This document shows positions 45,187 through 50,611 of a stretch of DNA of 64,000 nucleotides, in pieces. Below the pieces are notes generated by a model. It worked only from the letters and a program-made list of their open reading frames with translations, was not told the origin of the DNA and did not search any database. The DNA is from a virus. Position 1 is the first letter of the stretch; the number at the start of each line of letters is the position of its first letter. The stretch lies in the IMG/VR virus record IMGVR_UViG_3300043410_001024, positions 35,682 through 99,681 of that record; one strand, written 5' to 3'. The position numbers and the translations under genes were made by a program.

Positions 45187-45462
45187 TTATGATTTAATTT
45201 TAGAACGTCTTTTTAGTTCTTCTTTAAACCCGCATACAATATTCATATTAGATGAGTTAGAACTAAACCACTCCAAATAATTACTAGGAATATTTTTATA
45301 TTTTGTGCCTTTGAATTTACCGAAATTCATGATAGTATTTTCAAAATCATATTCGATATGATTTTTATCAAATGAACTAATTGATCTCTCTGAATGTCTT
45401 AATCTAATGCCTTTATTATAATCGCTATCTTTTCTTTTTAAATAATATGCCTCAAGTGTCAT
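45187..45462 (-). CDS. Small protein with DUF3820-like FGK(F/Y)KG...IP..YL.W motif (91 aa)
   Basis: MNFGKFKGTKYKNIPSNYLEWF; SD AGGA; late promoter TATAAATA 45487-45494. Confidence 0.65.
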   Translation of the reverse strand: MTLEAYYLKRKDSDYNKGIRLRHSERSISSFDKNHIEYDFENTIMNFGKFKGTKYKNIPSNYLEWFSSNSSNMNIVCGFKEELKRRSKIKS

Positions 45463-45524
45463 CTGTATGTCCTATGAATGTAACATTATTTATAGGACAT
45501 GACAACTAATAATATTTAAAAATG

Positions 45525-45546
45525 AAAAAGGGGAACGATGTTCCCC
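45525..45546 (-). terminator. Rho-independent terminator closing the structured non-coding region
   Basis: GGGGAAC-ATC-GTTCCCC-TTTTT on the minus strand. Confidence 0.85.
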
Positions 45547-46047
45547 AGTTCGTCACTTACGTTCCTCACAATCTTTTTTAATTAATTATAGAACCATTAT
45601 AGTTTAATAATCGCTTTTGATTGCAAGTTCATCTAGATTACGAGATTGGAGGACATTTTTGCCCCCTTACGGGAGCAAAAAAAATTTTTGAAAATACTTT
45701 CAAAAATCGATGTTTCATCTGAGTTGACTTCAATCATCGGATTAGTGTTACACTGTTACAGAGGCGGTCAGCCGGTACCTCGAAGTGCGTTTTTGTTTCT
45801 TATGTCTGACGGTGGCATTACGAAAATACACTAATCATCTTCGTAATACGTGGGTAATTAACCCTCTTTAGCCTTTATTATTCCTGTTAAAATAGCAAAA
45901 TTGGTTATATGGGAAGGCATGTCCAATCATCATCCTTTCGGGTAGTTGCTAAGTGCCGCGCTGTTGTCACGTAGGTGTCATTCTCATTCAAGTGTGGAAT
46001 TTTTACCGCTCAATACGATCCCTGAGCTGGGTTAATCAACAGTGTAG

Positions 46048-46150
46048 TGCCTGTGATTGCCTGAAGAAATGCCTAAGATGTGCCTGAATTATAATAGTAG
46101 TTATTAAAACTAAAATTACGGATGCCTAAAAATGAAATTATTTTTTGCCT
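46048..46150 (-). repeat. Six AGGCA pentamer repeats
   Basis: TGCCT on the + strand at 46048, 46058, 46070, 46081, 46123 and 46146. Confidence 0.8.
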
Positions 46151-46161
46151 AAAATGATGGG

Positions 46162-47346
46162 TTATTCCAACCCATCTGTTATATCTTTTATTATTGCTGT
46201 ATAATACTCAATATTTTTAGAAATTCTCCATACCGCTTGGTATGATAATTGTGTTTTTAATGAAATTTCTTTAAGTGTCAAGTTATTGTTTATATCTTGG
46301 ATGATAGATGTATACAGTGGTAAATCATTTGAAATAGTTTTCTTTGTTTTGTCATACCCCCGTTTGATATTTGATTGCCTAGTTGCATTTTTGTGTGCAT
46401 CACTAAGTGATTTATTCAGTTCGGAACGTATTTTTGAACATTTAGCTTTTCTGTCTGGGTTTTCATCCCAGTTTTTTTTCATTGCTGCAACATGGTCGGA
46501 TGATAATGTTTTGCCCTTAGTTGCTTTGCTTATATTATCTTTCCAAATTTGTTTTTGTGTTTCATCCATTTTGTAATAACATGGTTTGCCATACATATTA
46601 TTGTTTTCACCAGTATGTTTTCCAGTGTTTATCTTTCTTAATTTTTCTTTTGTTTCAGTGGTGTGTTGAACTTTTTTTGTTTTTCCAGATAAATGTTGTT
46701 GTTTTGTATATTCGCTCAACATTTTTTTTATTTTAGTAGCTCGTTCAATCCCATATAATTCCTCGTATGATTTATTTTTGTTAAATGGTTCTTTACCATA
46801 CATTGGATTATTGTCGCCCCGATGATACGTATCTAACCATTCTTCATAATCTTCACGAGTCATTTTTTTAATCACCGTGGCATCGCCTGTAACAATTTTA
46901 CTAATACTAATTCTAAGTTCATCAGCAGTTTGTGATGGTGGTATAAATTTCACACCCGCTACTGCTCTATTGTAATATTTTTTTGTTATACCATCATCTA
47001 AGAGTTCACGTAATACATTATGTGTTATTTGATATTCCACCTCTGCATAATGCAGAGAACCTTTTGAACTATGTAATGACAGTATATCAAATTTGTAATT
47101 ATCTTTGCCATTGTTAGTAATGGCAAGATTTAGATGCTCTGATGAACCAGTATATGTTTTCCAATTTGATTCGGAAATTACTTTTTTTCTATTCTTTTTA
47201 CCTTTTATGATTTTTCTGGTAGTATTAAAAAATTGTTTTTTTCCAATATATTCCCGCCCAGTATTAATTTCAGTAATTTTGTATATAAAACCAAACCAGT
47301 CATTTGGTTCAAATTCTATGTTAAATCCCCAGTGCCCATAATCCAT
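46162..47346 (-). CDS. GIY-YIG (Seg-like) endonuclease with NUMOD3 repeats and C-terminal HTH-like segment (394 aa)
   Basis: GFIYKIT...GREYIGKK...W..Y.GSS...E...Q...YYN; GDNNPMYGK, HTTETKEKLR, GENNNMYGK; LKEISLKTQLSYQAVWRI. Confidence 0.85.
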   Translation of the reverse strand: MDYGHWGFNIEFEPNDWFGFIYKITEINTGREYIGKKQFFNTTRKIIKGKKNRKKVISESNWKTYTGSSEHLNLAITNNGKDNYKFDILSLHSSKGSLHYAEVEYQITHNVLRELLDDGITKKYYNRAVAGVKFIPPSQTADELRISISKIVTGDATVIKKMTREDYEEWLDTYHRGDNNPMYGKEPFNKNKSYEELYGIERATKIKKMLSEYTKQQHLSGKTKKVQHTTETKEKLRKINTGKHTGENNNMYGKPCYYKMDETQKQIWKDNISKATKGKTLSSDHVAAMKKNWDENPDRKAKCSKIRSELNKSLSDAHKNATRQSNIKRGYDKTKKTISNDLPLYTSIIQDINNNLTLKEISLKTQLSYQAVWRISKNIEYYTAIIKDITDGLE

Positions 47347-47407
47347 TTTATCCTCCTATATAAATAATATATGTATTATCTATTATTTATCCTGGAAGAT
47401 AAAATGG
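47343..47407 (-). promoter_or_regulatory. RBS/start-sequestering hairpin enclosing a late promoter
   Basis: CCATTTTATCTTCC pairs with GGAGGATAAAATGG (SD + ATG); TAAATA at 47384-47389 lies inside. Confidence 0.8.
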
Positions 47408-47420
47408 TGGGGTGTTATTG

Positions 47421-47771
47421 CTAATTATCTGAATTTTTATTTAATGCTTGAATTCGTTCTAATTTACGTTGTTTCTTAGTCGTTGATTTAAAGTTTCGCT
47501 CTTTGTTTGTTTTATCACTAATTTTCTTTTTCCATTCTAAAATGAACTTTCTTCTTTTTAGAGTTAGATGAGAAATTTCATTAAGCCAGAATCTAGCATC
47601 TTGTGCTGATTGTTTAGTTCCGGCTTGCATCCAATGTAAATTAGCTTTATAATACTGTTGGAATGCGTAAATTAGTTCATCATGCGTTGTATGGTCAGAT
47701 GGGATTTGTGATAACTGCCAAGAATATACTCTTGGTGCATATGCTTGTTCTGGGATTACTCTTTTAGCCAT
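47421..47771 (-). CDS. Small basic protein, possibly Hc1/histone-H1-like DNA-binding (116 aa from ATG 47771)
   Basis: G.K.SA..AR.WL.EI......RRK.I pattern and Lys-rich tail; the Hc1 resemblance is tentative. Confidence 0.55.
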   Translation of the reverse strand: MAKRVIPEQAYAPRVYSWQLSQIPSDHTTHDELIYAFQQYYKANLHWMQAGTKQSAQDARFWLNEISHLTLKRRKFILEWKKKISDKTNKERNFKSTTKKQRKLERIQALNKNSDN

Positions 47772-47778
47772 GTTGCGT

Positions 47779-47807
47779 ATTATACATAAAAAAATAGGGC
47801 TTGTCAA
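47779..47807 (-). promoter_or_regulatory. Consensus sigma70 (early) promoter TTGACA-17-TATAAT
   Basis: -35 at 47802-47807, -10 at 47779-47784, 17-nt spacer. Confidence 0.85.
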
Positions 47808-47822: not shown

Positions 47823-49601
47823 TTATTCAGATATTTCTAAATCAACCGCGTATTCAGTAAATCCATTTTCTTTCACCACCCTAAGAACATTATTAACACG
47901 ACCAACAAGTTCTTCTTTATGACTGATTAGGAATACGTTTTTCTTACGTTCTCTGGCGATTTGTTTAAGAATCGATAATGCATTTTCAACGCCACTTGCA
48001 TCCAACCCGTTATCAATCAATTCGTCGATAAACAATAGATTAGTGGTGTTGTATAAACTTTCCCATACATCACGGAATGCCCACGACAATCCTAGAATTA
48101 GTCTATTACGTTCACCACGCGAAAGATTATCAAAGTCCAAATCTTGCCCCAATTGCGTAATTTCAACTGATAAATCATTTTGGAATACGACTGTATGTGG
48201 TAAACCCATTTTGTACAAATAATGGGATAATCTGCTATTCAAATACGATAGATTTTGGTTAATAATTGTTTTTCTAATAAAACTATCTTTATTTGTTAGT
48301 AATTTTAATAAAAATTCTTGGTGTTCTTTATATGAGGTTAATTCATTAATCACGGACCAATCTATTTCTTGAATAGCGGTACTTTGTAATTCTGTAATTT
48401 GTTCCGCATATGGGTCATTTTCATCAGCTTTTGATGTCAATTGGAATTCCAGGTTTTGTAATGAATTCTGGTGCGTTAATGCTTCCTCTAACGTATCATA
48501 ATAAGTGTCGGGTCTTACTTGATTTGTTCCAATACTTTCTAATTCATCACAAATTTTATTGTAATCCACCGATACGTTATCAAAGTATTTTTGTGATTCG
48601 GCTAAATGGGTACTAGCATCTTTGAGCAATTGTTCATGTTTGTGGTCATGAAGTTCTTGATCACACGCATGACATTTTTTATTACTTAATGATTCAAGTT
48701 CTTTAATATATTTGTCACGAGTTTTTACCGCTTGGGATATTGCGGATTCCAATGTTGCCTTTTCTTTATTAAGGCTTGTTACTTTAGCACGGCAATCCAA
48801 GTATTCTTTTAATAAACCATGGTTAGCTAATTCAGTTTCAATATTGACATTTTGTAATTCAACGATAGAGTTTGCAATTTTAACCATATTGTCATTTTTT
48901 TGCGACAACCAAAGTTTTTGCCGCATTACTAGTGTATCAATACTTTGTTGAATTTTGTCATTTGCCTTTCTTGTTGCTTCAATATTGGCATTTTCTTGAA
49001 CTAGTGCGTCTTTAGTTTGTTTAAGTTGTTTACTTAATGCCTCGGCTTTTTCACTTAATAAAGTGATACCCAATAATTGTTCAATTACAACTCGTTGATC
49101 CCCAGCTTTCATTGCTAAGAATGGTTCGGTATATGTGTTTAGTGCCAAAATGTGTTTGAACATCTCGTGACTAAACCCAAGCAATGTGGTAATGTCAGCT
49201 TGAGTATCCCTGGATTCACCTTGGCTATCACTTTCGTTAACTTTGTCTGGATTTGTGATATTAATAAAATTAAAGATAGCGGGTTTTCGGCCACGTTCAA
49301 TTTTATATTCCGTGTTATCTATTGAAAATGACAACGTGACCAACATATTTTTATTATTAATTTTGTTTATAAGATTGTCTTTCTTTATGTTGGTGAGTGC
49401 CACCCCAAATAATGCGAAACTAAGAGCATTGACTATGGTTGTTTTGCCAGTACCATTTCGATTGCCGCTGTCATCACCACCTTGGTCTAGGTTAGTACCT
49501 AAAACCAATGTTAGATGTTCTTTGTTGAAATCGACAGCTTGGGTTTGATTACCAACTGACATAAAGTTTTTTACTGTTAGTTCCTTAAATGTTATTTTCA
49601 T
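47823..49601 (-). CDS. gp46: Recombination ATPase, Rad50/SbcC-like (T4 gp46)
   Basis: Walker A NGTGKTT, zinc hook CHAC, signature LSRGE, Walker B/D-loop LFIDELIDNGLD, ISH. Confidence 0.95.
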   Translation of the reverse strand: MKITFKELTVKNFMSVGNQTQAVDFNKEHLTLVLGTNLDQGGDDSGNRNGTGKTTIVNALSFALFGVALTNIKKDNLINKINNKNMLVTLSFSIDNTEYKIERGRKPAIFNFINITNPDKVNESDSQGESRDTQADITTLLGFSHEMFKHILALNTYTEPFLAMKAGDQRVVIEQLLGITLLSEKAEALSKQLKQTKDALVQENANIEATRKANDKIQQSIDTLVMRQKLWLSQKNDNMVKIANSIVELQNVNIETELANHGLLKEYLDCRAKVTSLNKEKATLESAISQAVKTRDKYIKELESLSNKKCHACDQELHDHKHEQLLKDASTHLAESQKYFDNVSVDYNKICDELESIGTNQVRPDTYYDTLEEALTHQNSLQNLEFQLTSKADENDPYAEQITELQSTAIQEIDWSVINELTSYKEHQEFLLKLLTNKDSFIRKTIINQNLSYLNSRLSHYLYKMGLPHTVVFQNDLSVEITQLGQDLDFDNLSRGERNRLILGLSWAFRDVWESLYNTTNLLFIDELIDNGLDASGVENALSILKQIARERKKNVFLISHKEELVGRVNNVLRVVKENGFTEYAVDLEISE

Positions 49602-50611
49602 AATCCGTTATAAATTGATAGAAGGGTTGATTTGTTATAAGATTCGGATTCGATACTTACGATTTGGTTTGCTACTATTACGTCTATACTTTCAAATGCT
49701 GATGTATCAATTTCAGCAATAATTTCTGATGCTTTTTTCTCTGAAATAAGTGTTATTTCACGAAGGTTATATTGACTAATATAATTTTCTTTAATGAAAC
49801 CAGCTTCTTCAAAACTGATATCAATATCAAGGGTTACTCTAAGATGTTGATTTGGTTTAAGAATTTTGTCAGCATCATCAATCAACTGGCTCAGTTTTAC
49901 TGTACGAAATGTTGGTTGTTTATCCCACGTATGGAACGTTGGCTCACCGCCCCATTCTAACATCATCATTCCACGTTCATCATCCCACGCGTCTGCGTAG
50001 TTGTGCGGGAATGCATTGCCTAGGTAAATCATATTATTTCTACGTTGTCTTTTATGAAAATGGCCACTAAATCCCAATTCATAATTTTCAAATGCTTCTA
50101 ATGTTATAGAACCATGATCTGGCATCTGTACCATTGCATTCATAAAAAAATGTGGTAATTCAAAGTGTCCAAAGATATATTTTCCACCGCGTTTACTAAT
50201 CGATTTCCATTCATCGCCAACTAACCAAGGGCAAAGCGTAACATTTCCTATTGTGGTTGGTTTTTCGACGATAGTAATTCCTGGAATGTATTTTCCAAAT
50301 TCAGTTGAATGGATATCTCGTTTATCTTTGTAATAAAGGTCGTGATTTCCGGGAAAAAAGAAGAATTGGTCAAATGCCGCACCGAGTTTTTCTAATGACC
50401 GGATACTGGCGTCCATTGTTGTGATGTTTAGTGAGTTTCTATGATGATGCCAATCACCGCAGAAAATCCCAGTATCACATCCGGCGGCTTTAGCGGTATC
50501 AATGTACCAATCGATGAAGTCTTCGCAATCTTGATTGTGGATGCTGCTGTTGTTTTTGAGTCCAAAATGTATGTCTGTGAAGACAGCAGCTTTTTTAAAT
50601 AAATTGTGCAT
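49598..50611 (-). CDS. gp47: Recombination nuclease, Mre11/SbcD-like (T4 gp47)
   Basis: DIHFG, GDWHH, GNHD, GHFE, SGHFH metallophosphoesterase motifs. Confidence 0.95.
   Translation of the reverse strand: MHNLFKKAAVFTDIHFGLKNNSSIHNQDCEDFIDWYIDTAKAAGCDTGIFCGDWHHHRNSLNITTMDASIRSLEKLGAAFDQFFFFPGNHDLYYKDKRDIHSTEFGKYIPGITIVEKPTTIGNVTLCPWLVGDEWKSISKRGGKYIFGHFELPHFFMNAMVQMPDHGSITLEAFENYELGFSGHFHKRQRRNNMIYLGNAFPHNYADAWDDERGMMMLEWGGEPTFHTWDKQPTFRTVKLSQLIDDADKILKPNQHLRVTLDIDISFEEAGFIKENYISQYNLREITLISEKKASEIIAEIDTSAFESIDVIVANQIVSIESESYNKSTLLSIYNGL

What the first reader, a model, noticed from the sequence alone, without database searches (positions are those of the whole stretch)
45525..46050. Candidate large pseudoknotted ncRNA directly downstream of a GIY-YIG endonuclease gene
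Seen in sequence: the 700-nt gap 45463-46161 is by far the largest non-coding stretch in a gene-dense window. On the minus strand it folds extensively. An 11-bp stem (45817-45827 / 45837-45847, one G-U) has a 9-nt loop GAUUAGUGU exactly complementary to ACACUAAUC at 45740-45748, i.e. a pseudoknot. There is a 10-bp stem capped by GUAA (45657-45680, one G-U), a bulged helix GAGG-uac-CGG-cuga-CCG-CCUC (45761-45781), a domain closed by UAGCAA/UUGCUA (45946-45951 / 45893-45898) containing a CC-GAAA-GG loop, a 5' domain closed by CUGUUG/CAACAG (46037-46042 / 45961-45966) containing GCUCA/UGAGC, twin AGAUGAA motifs, and a terminator at 45525-45546. The wobble pairs would be C-A mismatches on the plus strand, which fixes the strand. 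Inference: a ~0.5-0.6 kb RNA with tertiary structure, co-oriented with the nuclease gene and with no terminator seen between them. Possible roles: scaffold/guide RNA of a nuclease RNP (by analogy to IscB-omegaRNA/HEARO but with a GIY-YIG enzyme), a ROOL/GOLLD-class ornate phage RNA, or a ColE1 RNA II-like replication primer. I cannot match it to a known family.
Basis: partly seen in the sequence, partly recalled or inferred. Interest (0 to 1): 0.88.

Follow-up and report, generated by a model that had tools for sequence, protein, structure and literature searches.

The report
Divergent full-length Polynucleobacter-1 phage RNA
The gene-free 700 bases behind a homing-endonuclease gene of this uncultured freshwater T4-like phage encode a real, multiply knotted non-coding RNA of about 500 bases; its first third is the catalogued but unexplained Polynucleobacter-1 motif, the nuclease looks like an exchangeable neighbour rather than a partner, and the RNA's job is still unknown.

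Summary
The 699-nt gap is the largest ORF-free stretch in the window. It carries a minus-strand structured RNA (about 46032 to 45530) that ends in an intrinsic terminator.

It does match a known family. Rfam RF01718 (Polynucleobacter-1, function unknown) hits 45890-46032 at 43.8 bits (cut-off 37). That model covers only the 5' third.

Over 100 related viral contigs show that the whole RNA is conserved:
- 91 base pairs are 95% paired, against 36-41% in slid controls.
- The two AGAUGAA boxes belong to a pair of 7-nt words that are identical within one RNA in 101 of 104 loci, yet differ between RNAs (13 words).

The nuclease-guide reading is not supported:
- Relatives of the nuclease mostly lack the RNA (66 of 80 loci; three complete phage genomes).
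- The RNA also sits behind an unrelated PD-(D/E)xK nuclease, or none.
- In Burkholderiales it sits beside DUF6641 and a mini tyrosine recombinase.
- Here a full-length SegE/NUMOD3-type homing endonuclease of another clade occupies the slot.

This scan has met the same RNA family many times on other DNA. I found no paper beyond the 2010 motif description.

The parts
45530..46032 (-). Whole structured RNA (full-length Polynucleobacter-1-type RNA). The 5' end is not mapped and could lie anywhere up to 46161.
   Evidence: nhmmer homology to 27 and then 114 viral loci over window ~45957-45553; alignment A1 with 77 invariant columns; covariation
45890..46032 (-). 5' domain = Rfam RF01718 match (P1-P6)
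   Evidence: cmscan 43.8 bits, cut-off 37, E 6e-8, model 1-141
46008..46031 (-). 5' H-type pseudoknot: PK1 CCC 46029-46031 with GGG 46020-46022, interleaved with P1 GCUCA 46023-46027 / UGAGC 46008-46012
   Evidence: helices 1 and 2; PK1 2 of 4 pairs with changes on both sides: GGCU/GGCC, GACU/GGUC, CCC/GGG
45889..45955 (-). Three-way junction: P4 45946-45951/45893-45898 (+45954-5/45889-90), P5 CC-GAAA-GG 45934-45941, P6 45924-45928/45899-45903 with loop AUGCCU
   Evidence: helices 5-7 (98.5-100% paired, 4 and 3 covarying pairs)
45852..45864 (-). P7 hairpin GGGU-UAAUU-ACCC
   Evidence: homologous hairpin covaries at 5 of 6 pairs in relatives (helix 8); window coordinates
45815..45849 (-). P8 hairpin (13 bp) with 9-nt loop 45828-45836
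   Evidence: helix 9: 13 of 13 pairs with changes on both sides
45740..45748 (-). 3' strand of pseudoknot PK2, pairs with the P8 loop 45828-45836
   Evidence: helix 10 (5 of 6 pairs covary, 99.3% paired); three versions among the closest relatives: window GUG/CAC, L166 GCG/CGC, L170 GAG/CUC
45750..45788 (-). P11 (45784-45788/45750-45754) enclosing P10 GAGG-UAC-CGG-CUGA-CCG-CCUC (45761-45781), the most conserved block of the family
   Evidence: helices 12-14; the 17-nt pattern from this block retrieved 114 verified RNA loci
45708..45739 (-). P12 hairpin CGAUG/CAUCG displaying box 1 (AGAUGAA 45714-45720) behind ACUC
   Evidence: the stem moves and changes sequence between relatives (seen by eye; not separable from chance by a simple test)
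45685..45706 (-). Hairpin UUUUUGAAA-GUA-UUUUCAAAAA, an insertion absent from the closest relatives L166/L170
   Evidence: alignment
45657..45680 (-). P13 hairpin (10 bp, GUAA loop) between the two boxes
   Evidence: helix 15 (100% paired, mostly invariant)
45628..45634 (-). Box 2 (AGAUGAA) behind AAUCU
   Evidence: (mutual information 0.99 and 1.12 only with the box 1 columns)
45530..45546 (-). Intrinsic terminator GGGGAAC-AUC-GUUCCCC + U5
   Evidence: relatives end in an analogous hairpin plus U run
46033..46161 (-). Spacer between nuclease stop and RNA with six AGGCA repeats. It is absent where a minimal nuclease abuts the RNA.
46162..47346 (-). 394-aa GIY-YIG homing endonuclease (SegE-type N-domain; C-terminal GxNNxMYGK motifs x2 and an HTH-like tail)
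   Evidence: Pfam PF19835 4e-34; relatives at 43-57% identity carry NUMOD3 PF07460; translation

Best explanation
The gap is a gene for a large structured non-coding RNA of about 500 nt on the minus strand. It is a divergent, full-length member of the family whose 5' third is catalogued as Polynucleobacter-1 (RF01718).

Shown:
- The fold has a 5' domain: an H-type pseudoknot, three hairpins and a three-way junction.
- It has a 3' domain: P7, P8, P10/P11 and a long-range pseudoknot from the P8 loop to the strand behind P11.
- A tail displays the same 7-nt word (AGAUGAA) twice, on either side of hairpin P13.
- A terminator follows.

Inferred:
- The RNA is made as the 3'-terminal part of the gp47-gp46-orf128-nuclease transcription unit, or from the AGGCA spacer.
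- It acts in trans as an independent RNA of mobile elements. It occurs in T4-like freshwater phages and in small Burkholderiales islands.
- The knotted body is a rigid scaffold. The twin boxes are the working end and read two copies of one complementary word in a nucleic acid that is not yet found. A/G differences are matched in both boxes, which argues for Watson-Crick reading.
- The GIY-YIG gene is a selfish or fixed neighbour. Small nuclease genes of several kinds park at the 5' edge of this highly conserved RNA gene. In this lineage a full-length SegE/NUMOD3 homing endonuclease of another clade has taken that slot together with its own RNA subtype.
For: RNA and fold:
- Rfam hit.
- Homology of the whole gap to more than 100 viral loci.
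- 91 pairs are 95.4% paired, against 80.5% in shuffles and 36-41% when slid. 57 pairs change on both sides (0 of 500 shuffles reach this).
- G-U:A-C ratio of 174:22 fixes the strand.
- Terminator.

Twin boxes:
- 101 of 104 loci have identical words, with 13 different words. Shuffles give a mean of 14 and a maximum of 28.
- The words already differ in 62% of pairs that are 85-90% identical elsewhere.
- Only the two boxes share mutual information.

Independence from the nuclease:
- Of 80 loci with relatives of this nuclease, only 14 have the RNA. Most have gaps under 100 nt.
- The complete genomes of Melnitz-3, C48C1 and BUCT-ZZ01 have the nuclease but no RF01718.
- Of 97 RNA loci, 79 have an adjacent GIY-YIG gene, 9 have one further upstream, 1 has one on the other strand, 3 have an adjacent PDDEXK_15 gene (a fourth has one further upstream), and 4 have none.
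- Bacterial copies score 86-104 bits and have no GIY-YIG. They have DUF6641 and a tyrosine recombinase of about 190 aa.

Turnover of the nuclease:
- Phages whose gp46 is 67-69% identical to the window's carry nucleases only 31-37% identical.
- L166, with the same gp46 identity, has one 87% identical.
- The RNA subtype follows the nuclease clade: 68% identity to L166 against 54% to L347.
Against: - No transcript evidence: no RNA run is on record for this stretch, so expression, ends and processing are untested.
- 93 of 97 phage RNA loci do have a small nuclease gene just upstream. In most the RNA starts 0-5 nt after its stop codon. That is tighter than simple neighbourhood requires.
- Non-homologous nucleases (GIY-YIG, PD-(D/E)xK) at the same place, and a mini recombinase in bacteria, could equally mean an exchangeable effector.
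- No complementary reader of the boxes was found within several kb or inside the RNA.
Confidence: 0.6

Rival explanations
1. The RNA is the partner (guide, scaffold or activator) of the adjacent small DNA enzyme. The twin 7-nt boxes aim a domain-poor nuclease (GIY-YIG or PD-(D/E)xK in phages; a mini tyrosine recombinase in bacterial islands) at DNA, by analogy to HEARO/IscB omega RNA or IS110 bridge RNA.
For: - 93 of 97 RNA loci have a small nuclease gene upstream, mostly abutting the RNA.
- The usual partner is a 143-150-aa catalytic-domain-only GIY-YIG.
- Unrelated nuclease folds occupy the same position.
- Bacterial copies lie about 850 nt upstream of a recombinase of about 190 aa.
- The box words vary quickly and in concert, like specificity determinants.
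- The RNA subtype tracks the nuclease clade.
Against: - The nuclease family exists far more often without the RNA (66 of 80 loci, three complete phage genomes, 703 phage records with a homologue).
- In this window the enzyme has its own NUMOD3/HTH-type DNA-binding part, so it needs no guide, yet the RNA is kept.
- Four phage RNA loci and all bacterial loci lack the nuclease.
- One RNA serving three unrelated enzyme folds is hard to picture.
- 7 nt, twice the same word, gives little specificity.
- No target-like complement lies nearby.
Confidence: 0.08
2. The RNA is a cis-acting 3' UTR of the nuclease mRNA. It would be a stabiliser, a translation or termination-coupled switch, or an antitoxin-like brake on a toxic nuclease, rather than an independent RNA.
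For: - In most relatives the RNA begins 0-5 nt after the stop codon, with no room for its own promoter.
- It always ends the transcription unit and is convergent with late baseplate genes.
- No terminator that meets the scan's criteria lies between gene and RNA here.
Against: - Bacterial copies stand alone, divergent from DUF6641, with no gene upstream on their strand.
- In this window 130 nt separate the stop codon from the RNA, and the RNA is still conserved.
- About 450 nt with three knots and twin covarying boxes is far more than known stabilisers need.
- Homologous nucleases do without it.
Confidence: 0.12
3. The RNA is a catalytic or self-assembling 'ornate' RNA (ribozyme or RNA-only multimer like ROOL/GOLLD/OLE). 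Its conserved unpaired nucleotides form an active site or inter-protomer contacts, and the twin boxes are symmetric contacts.
For: - Size, several pseudoknots, GNRA-type loops (P5, P7) and many invariant unpaired positions (77 invariant columns).
- Residence in phages and mobile islands, as for ROOL and GOLLD.
Against: - No Rfam hit to any ribozyme, ROOL, GOLLD, OLE or HEARO at E<=1.
- The boxes are identical, not complementary, so they cannot kiss each other.
- No cleavage or assembly data exist.
Confidence: 0.1
4. It is a DNA-level element (replication origin with RNA II-like primer, packaging or recombination site) rather than a functional RNA.
For: - Phased AGGCA repeats upstream.
- Location next to the gp46/gp47 recombination nuclease genes.
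Against: - Compensatory changes keep helices, with G-U pairs on one strand only (174 against 22).
- The AGGCA spacer is lineage-specific and absent from most family members.
- No origin features were tested or seen.
Confidence: 0.03

Closest known systems
Polynucleobacter-1 RNA motif (Rfam RF01718; Weinberg et al. 2010, Genome Biol 11:R31, PMC2864571)
   Same: - Window 45890-46032 scores 43.8 bits (cut-off 37) over model positions 1-141.
- Same P1, three-way junction and CACUAYCC..GGAYG core.
- Same context as the paper's supplement states: downstream of a GOS11034 / PSSM2_218-like gene, which is the small SegE-type GIY-YIG.
- Same habitat (fresh water, Burkholderiales).
   Different: - The Rfam model is 141 nt. 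The conserved RNA is about 430-500 nt in phages and about 600 nt in bacteria.
- The undescribed parts are PK1, PK2, P7-P13, the twin boxes and a terminator.
- The paper found it in no purified phage. Here it lies in T4-like viral contigs.
- The window's copy is the most divergent one seen (relatives score 77-119 bits).
- Function is unknown in both.
HEARO RNA / IscB omega RNA
   Same: A large structured RNA next to a nuclease gene on mobile DNA. It was first an orphan motif of the same 2010 survey.
   Different: - No Rfam match.
- The enzyme here is GIY-YIG (or PD-(D/E)xK), not RuvC/HNH.
- The RNA lies 3' of the gene.
- There is no terminal guide segment.
- The nuclease family mostly lives without the RNA.
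ROOL, GOLLD and OLE ornate large RNAs
   Same: A size of 400-600 nt, many pseudoknots, residence in phages and mobile elements, unknown biochemical role.
   Different: No sequence or structure match. Multimer formation is untested. The twin covarying boxes have no counterpart there.
T4 Seg-type free-standing GIY-YIG homing endonucleases (SegA-G) and I-TevI
   Same: - The 394-aa protein has the SegE GIY-YIG domain plus NUMOD3-like repeats and an HTH-like tail.
- It sits between conserved genes.
- Its phylogeny is discordant with gp46.
- The neighbouring sequence (the RNA subtype) travels with it, as in co-conversion during homing.
   Different: - Cleavage site and mobility were not tested.
- It is not inside an intron.
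- The common neighbour of the RNA is a 144-aa form without a recognisable DNA-binding part.
IS110-family bridge RNA
   Same: Works-like comparison only: one folded RNA that shows two short programmable words.
   Different: - The two words here are identical, not two different guides.
- There is no IS110 recombinase and no match in Rfam.
- Base pairing with DNA is not shown.

Membership tests
Rfam RF01718 Polynucleobacter-1 RNA | Covariance-model score at or above the curated gathering score (37 bits) | tested here: met
   43.8 bits, E 6.3e-8, model 1-141, window 45890-46032 minus strand
Rfam RF01718 Polynucleobacter-1 RNA | Model helices P1, P4, P5, P6 present; P2 and P3 present | tested here: inconclusive
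   P1, P4, P5 and P6 are formed. cmscan marks non-canonical pairs in P2, and posterior probabilities are low over P2/P3. The L166/L170 subtype also differs there.
Rfam RF01718 Polynucleobacter-1 RNA | Genomic context: downstream of a GOS11034 / PSSM2_218-like gene (PMC2864571 supplement) | tested here: met
   A SegE-type GIY-YIG gene lies directly upstream on the same strand. The same holds in 79 of 97 viral loci.
Full-length twin-box form of the family (defined here and in earlier notes of this scan, not in the literature) | P8 loop pseudoknot with the strand behind P11 | tested here: met
   9 bp in the window (45828-45836/45740-45748). 5 of 6 pairs covary in A1.
Full-length twin-box form of the family (defined here and in earlier notes of this scan, not in the literature) | Conserved GAGGUACCGG-NNNN-CCGCCUC block (P10) closed by covarying P11 | tested here: met
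   45750-45788. The loop is CUGA here instead of ACAA.
Full-length twin-box form of the family (defined here and in earlier notes of this scan, not in the literature) | Two identical 7-nt words behind ACUC and AUCU, about 45-60 nt apart around hairpin P13 | tested here: met
   AGAUGAA at 45714-45720 and 45628-45634. The spacing is 86 nt here because of an inserted hairpin.
HEARO / IscB omega RNA | Rfam model match and an adjacent IscB (RuvC/HNH) gene | tested here: not met
   No hit at E<=1. The neighbour is GIY-YIG.
ROOL / GOLLD | Rfam model match | tested here: not met
   No hit at E<=1 in 45300-46400 or at gathering score in the whole window
Group I intron carrying a GIY-YIG ORF | Intron core match and a host gene split by the element | tested here: not met
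   No Rfam intron hit. The flanking ORFs (128 aa, 91 aa) are separate genes, and orf128 is conserved as such in L166/L170.
Seg-type free-standing GIY-YIG homing endonuclease (the gene 46162-47346) | GIY-YIG catalytic domain plus a separate DNA-binding region | tested here: met
   PF19835 4e-34. GxNNxMYGK x2 in the translation. NUMOD3 PF07460 is precomputed in relatives of 43-57% identity. Pfam does not call NUMOD3 in the window protein itself.
Seg-type free-standing GIY-YIG homing endonuclease (the gene 46162-47346) | Sporadic distribution, discordant with neighbouring core genes | tested here: met
   gp46 identity against nuclease identity. The slot between gp46 and the hub gene is filled in either orientation, with or without the RNA.
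Seg-type free-standing GIY-YIG homing endonuclease (the gene 46162-47346) | Site-specific cleavage of the endonuclease-free allele and gene conversion | not testable with these tools
   Needs enzyme assays or mixed infections
ColE1 RNA II-like replication primer | Origin function, RNase H processing, antisense RNA I | not tested
   No computational signature is available. Nothing seen points to it.

The most novel reading that the evidence does not exclude
The RNA is a programmable recognition module. Its two identical, fast-changing 7-nt words would base-pair with a repeated or palindromic DNA word. They would aim whichever small, domain-poor DNA enzyme is encoded beside it: GIY-YIG or PD-(D/E)xK nuclease in phages, mini tyrosine recombinase in bacterial islands. 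That would be a new kind of RNA-guided DNA-targeting system with exchangeable effectors.
Probability: 0.06. Interest if true: 0.95.

Novelty: new variant of a known kind. Interest (0 to 1): 0.6.

Why it matters
A 141-nt orphan motif from 2010 turns out to be the head of a 450-600-nt RNA with two or three pseudoknots. That RNA is common in uncultured freshwater T4-like phages and in small Burkholderiales islands. It places the family among the few large 'ornate' bacterial and phage RNAs without a known job.

It also gives a concrete handle. Two displayed 7-nt words stay identical within one RNA while switching between close relatives, so they can be mutated, swapped and used as bait.

This window adds a natural experiment. 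The usual minimal nuclease has been replaced by a full-length homing endonuclease of another clade, with a 130-nt repeat spacer, and the RNA is still kept. That argues the RNA does not depend on one particular nuclease.

Tried and rejected
Searches that found nothing useful:
- blastn ('distant') of the window RNA and of a typical relative against 50,697 phage records gave no match. Sensitivity is limited to about 65-70% identity.
- The search for related loci with the single window protein gave only weak hits. The profile A2 was needed.
- A sequence search of the PDB with the nuclease gave only irrelevant repeat-protein hits.
- The only paper in the library that names the motif is the 2010 survey. 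'DUF6641' gave no paper.

Sequencing runs:
- No RNA holder is listed for the stretch. Expression remains untested.
- Read laying on four DNA metagenomes gave no information on RNA ends.
- It did show a 1593-nt contig from another study that bridges nuclease and RNA (45908-47492, 12 differences), so the junction is not an assembly artefact.
- The T>C difference at 45746 probably comes from other family members laid at 80% likeness.

Reader of the twin boxes:
- No column of the alignment other than the other box shares comparable mutual information.
- No consistent place of the complementary word lies within the loci.
- Upstream hits in some bacterial loci lie in unrelated contexts (coding sequence, a different conserved motif) and were judged chance.
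- A simple test for a stem bracketing each box did not beat shuffles.
- Readings as a tRNA anticodon loop, T-loop, K-turn (C/D box), CsrA site, 16S tail or mini-ORF were considered by eye. I dropped them because the bacterial words do not fit.

Rejected helices:
- GGC (cols 201-203) with GCC (267-269): 10 A-C mismatches, no covariation.
- CCGU/ACGG.

Weakly supported: pairing of the same GGC with the P6 loop GCC (PK3). It has five clear double changes and two clear exceptions, so I list it only as a candidate.

Full report
**What is there.** The window is part of a 99.7-kb viral record of a T4-like phage. The local order on the minus strand is:
- gp47/gp46 (SbcD/SbcC-like), 47823-50611;
- a 128-aa ORF;
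- a 394-aa GIY-YIG gene, 46162-47346 (Pfam SegE_GIY-YIG, 4e-34);
- the 699-nt gap;
- a 91-aa and a 299-aa ORF.

A baseplate hub gene lies on the plus strand. The gap is the largest stretch without an ORF of 80 aa or more in the window.

**Known family.** cmscan against Rfam 15 gives one hit in the whole window. It is RF01718 (Polynucleobacter-1 RNA) at 45890-46032 on the minus strand, with 43.8 bits against a cut-off of 37 and E 6e-8. No other family reaches E<=1 in the gap. The family comes from Weinberg et al. 2010 (PMC2864571). Its supplement makes three statements:
- the RNAs lie downstream of genes of family GOS11034, with possible homology to PSSM2_218 of cyanophage P-SSM2;
- the 3' half is not always detected;
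- none was found in a purified phage.

The raw alignment in that supplement already shows flanking sequence that resembles the window's 3' part. No function is known, and the library holds no later paper that names the motif.

**The RNA is much larger than the Rfam model.** A pattern scan of viral contigs followed by nhmmer with the window's RNA found 27 homologous loci. The homology runs from about 45957 down to 45553-45620. All 20 loci tested are RF01718 members at 77-119 bits, so the window's copy is a divergent member. A second scan used a 17-nt pattern from the 3' domain. It gave 132 unique loci, of which 114 were verified by nhmmer. In relatives the RNA fills the whole space from the stop codon of the upstream gene to a terminator, about 430-470 nt. 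The next genes are on the opposite strand, so it cannot be a 5' leader.

**Fold.** I named 91 pairs in 16 helices on the 25-sequence alignment A1.
- 95.4% of cells form standard pairs. Column shuffles give 80.5%, and partners slid by 1-3 columns give 36-41%.
- 57 pairs change on both sides (shuffles give 35.5; 0 of 500 reach the observed value).
- Its loop pairs with the strand behind P11 (PK2) at 99.3% of cells, and 5 of 6 pairs covary.
- Even the three closest sequences differ compensatorily there: GUG/CAC, GCG/CGC and GAG/CUC.
- A compact H-type pseudoknot (PK1) opens the RNA. It is CCC/GGG here, GGCU/GGCC or GACU/GGUC in phage relatives, and UGAG/CUCA in bacteria.
- A third tertiary pairing, GGC of the conserved AAAGGCUAAA with the P6 loop GCC, has five clear double changes and two clear exceptions. 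It remains a candidate.
- G-U cells outnumber A-C cells 174 to 22, which fixes the strand.
- The terminator is at 45530-45546.

**Twin boxes.** Earlier notes of this scan suggested that such boxes change together, and I tested that here.
- I located the boxes by a fixed rule: seven letters after ACUC, then seven after the next AUCU at least 25 nt further on.
- Of 104 RNA loci, 101 have two identical words, with 13 different words. Shuffling gives 14 on average and at most 28.
- In A1 the two variable box positions share the maximal possible mutual information with each other and with no other well-aligned column.
- Bacterial copies use other words (AGCGAAA, AUCGAAA, AUCAAAA, ACCAAAA), again twice.
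- Words already differ in 62% of RNA pairs that are 85-90% identical elsewhere.
- A/G differences are matched in both boxes. A reader that tolerated wobble would not force this, so Watson-Crick reading by a nucleic acid is the simplest inference.
- I found no complementary partner inside the RNA or within several kb.

**Is the nuclease a partner?** Starting from the RNA, the link looks strong. Of 97 viral RNA loci with enough upstream DNA:
- 79 have a same-strand SegE-type GIY-YIG ORF of about 143-174 codons ending at the RNA;
- 9 have one further upstream;
- 1 has one on the other strand;
- 3 have a small PD-(D/E)xK nuclease there instead (Pfam PDDEXK_15, 1e-24 to 1e-26), and a fourth has one further upstream;
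- 4 have neither.

Starting from the nuclease, the link is weak.
- Of 80 viral loci with relatives of the window's enzyme, only 14 have the RNA. Most have less than 100 nt to the next ORF.
- The enzyme sits in the same slot between gp46 and the hub gene in either orientation.
- 703 deposited phage genomes encode a homologue of the small form.
- The three I examined have short gaps and no RF01718 anywhere in their complete genomes.

In bacterial genomes (Polynucleobacter, Limnohabitans and other Burkholderiales) the RNA scores 86-104 bits. It has no GIY-YIG nearby. It lies divergent from a DUF6641 gene and, in several loci, about 850 nt upstream of a tyrosine recombinase of about 190 aa.

**What is special here.**
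- The window's enzyme is not the usual minimal form. It has 394 aa, with two GxNNxMYGK (NUMOD3-like) motifs and an HTH-like tail.
- It belongs to a family of full-length SegE/NUMOD3 proteins.
- Phages whose gp46 is as close to the window's as any (67-69%) carry nucleases only 31-37% identical. L166/L167 have the same gp46 identity and an 87% identical nuclease.
- The RNA of the window, L166 and L170 forms its own subtype: 65-81% identity among themselves and about 50-55% to the main type. So nuclease and RNA share a history that differs from gp46's. That is what co-conversion during homing, or cassette exchange, would give.
- This subtype has a spacer with (U)AGGC(A/U) repeats between stop codon and RNA. 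There are six copies here (the only such cluster in the window), four in L166 and two in L170. L169, which has a full-length nuclease but a more distant RNA, has four UAGGCU.
- A DNA contig from another study bridges nuclease and RNA, so the junction is real.

**Reading.** The evidence shows a genuine, strand-specific, multiply pseudoknotted RNA gene. It is a divergent member of a family that the literature knows only by its head. I infer four things:
- The RNA works on its own.
- The knotted body presents the two boxes.
- The boxes read a repeated complementary word in trans.
- Small nuclease genes, including this homing endonuclease, are neighbours that exploit a very conserved piece of DNA.

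The nuclease-partner idea keeps a small probability. The reasons are the near-constant adjacency in phages and the presence of a different DNA enzyme in the bacterial islands. Expression, ends, partners and activity are all untested.

**Relation to earlier notes of this scan.** The same family has been reported many times on other DNA, with the same closest known family. My tests here agree with those notes on five points: the extended fold, the twin boxes, the bacterial context, the pattern of a small DNA-cutting or DNA-joining enzyme as neighbour, and the nuclease being a neighbour rather than a partner. The replacement by a full-length homing endonuclease with a repeat spacer, and the discordance between gp46 and nuclease, are what this window adds.

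Noticed in passing
window 46048-46150 (minus strand): Six AGGCA repeats between the nuclease stop and the RNA form the only cluster of this kind in the 64-kb window. The homologous spacers of L166 (4 copies) and L170 (2) have them too, and L169 has UAGGCU four times. The RNA itself carries a conserved AAAGGCUAAA whose GGC may pair with the P6 loop (AUGCCU in the window).
   Followed up: partly
L273:3893-4423(-), L286:2614-3126(+), L299:265-771(+): In these viral contigs the gene that abuts the RNA is a 168-176-aa PD-(D/E)xK nuclease (Pfam PDDEXK_15) instead of the GIY-YIG enzyme. It sits at the same place behind gp46.
   Followed up: partly
L133, L144, L149, L162 and other Burkholderiales loci: Bacterial copies of the RNA are conserved for about 600 nt. 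They lie between a divergent DUF6641 gene (plus a 137-142-aa ORF) and, in L133 and L144, a tyrosine recombinase of about 190 aa. tRNA genes lie a few kb away in L144, L155 and L159.
   Followed up: partly
window 46156-46176: An 8-bp hairpin spans the stop codon of the nuclease gene and is followed on the minus strand by AUUUUA. It may be a weak terminator or a processing signal between gene and RNA.
   Followed up: no
window 45487-45494 (minus strand): TATAAATA (T4 late-promoter core) lies between the RNA's terminator and the 91-aa ORF 45187-45462, whose product has a weak QSregVF_b match. The count of TATAAATA in the window is not above chance.
   Followed up: no
window 47421-47807 (minus strand): The 128-aa ORF between gp46 and the nuclease has no family match. 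It is conserved (58-69% identity) in L166, L167, L170 and L214, that is, in the lineage with the full-length nuclease.
   Followed up: no
window 45646-45834 (plus strand): A 62-aa TTG-start ORF lies antisense inside the RNA's 3' domain. Relatives have ORFs of varying frame and length there, so it is probably spurious.
   Followed up: no
phage records (e.g. OQ984149.1, NC_028945.1): The small SegE-type GIY-YIG protein (phrog_447) is widely annotated as 'NAD synthetase' in deposited phage genomes. This looks like a propagated misnomer.
   Followed up: no
L277:2870-3760(-): One RNA locus without a nuclease has an upstream 296-aa protein with an Mtd_N domain (major tropism determinant of diversity-generating retroelements).
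   Followed up: no
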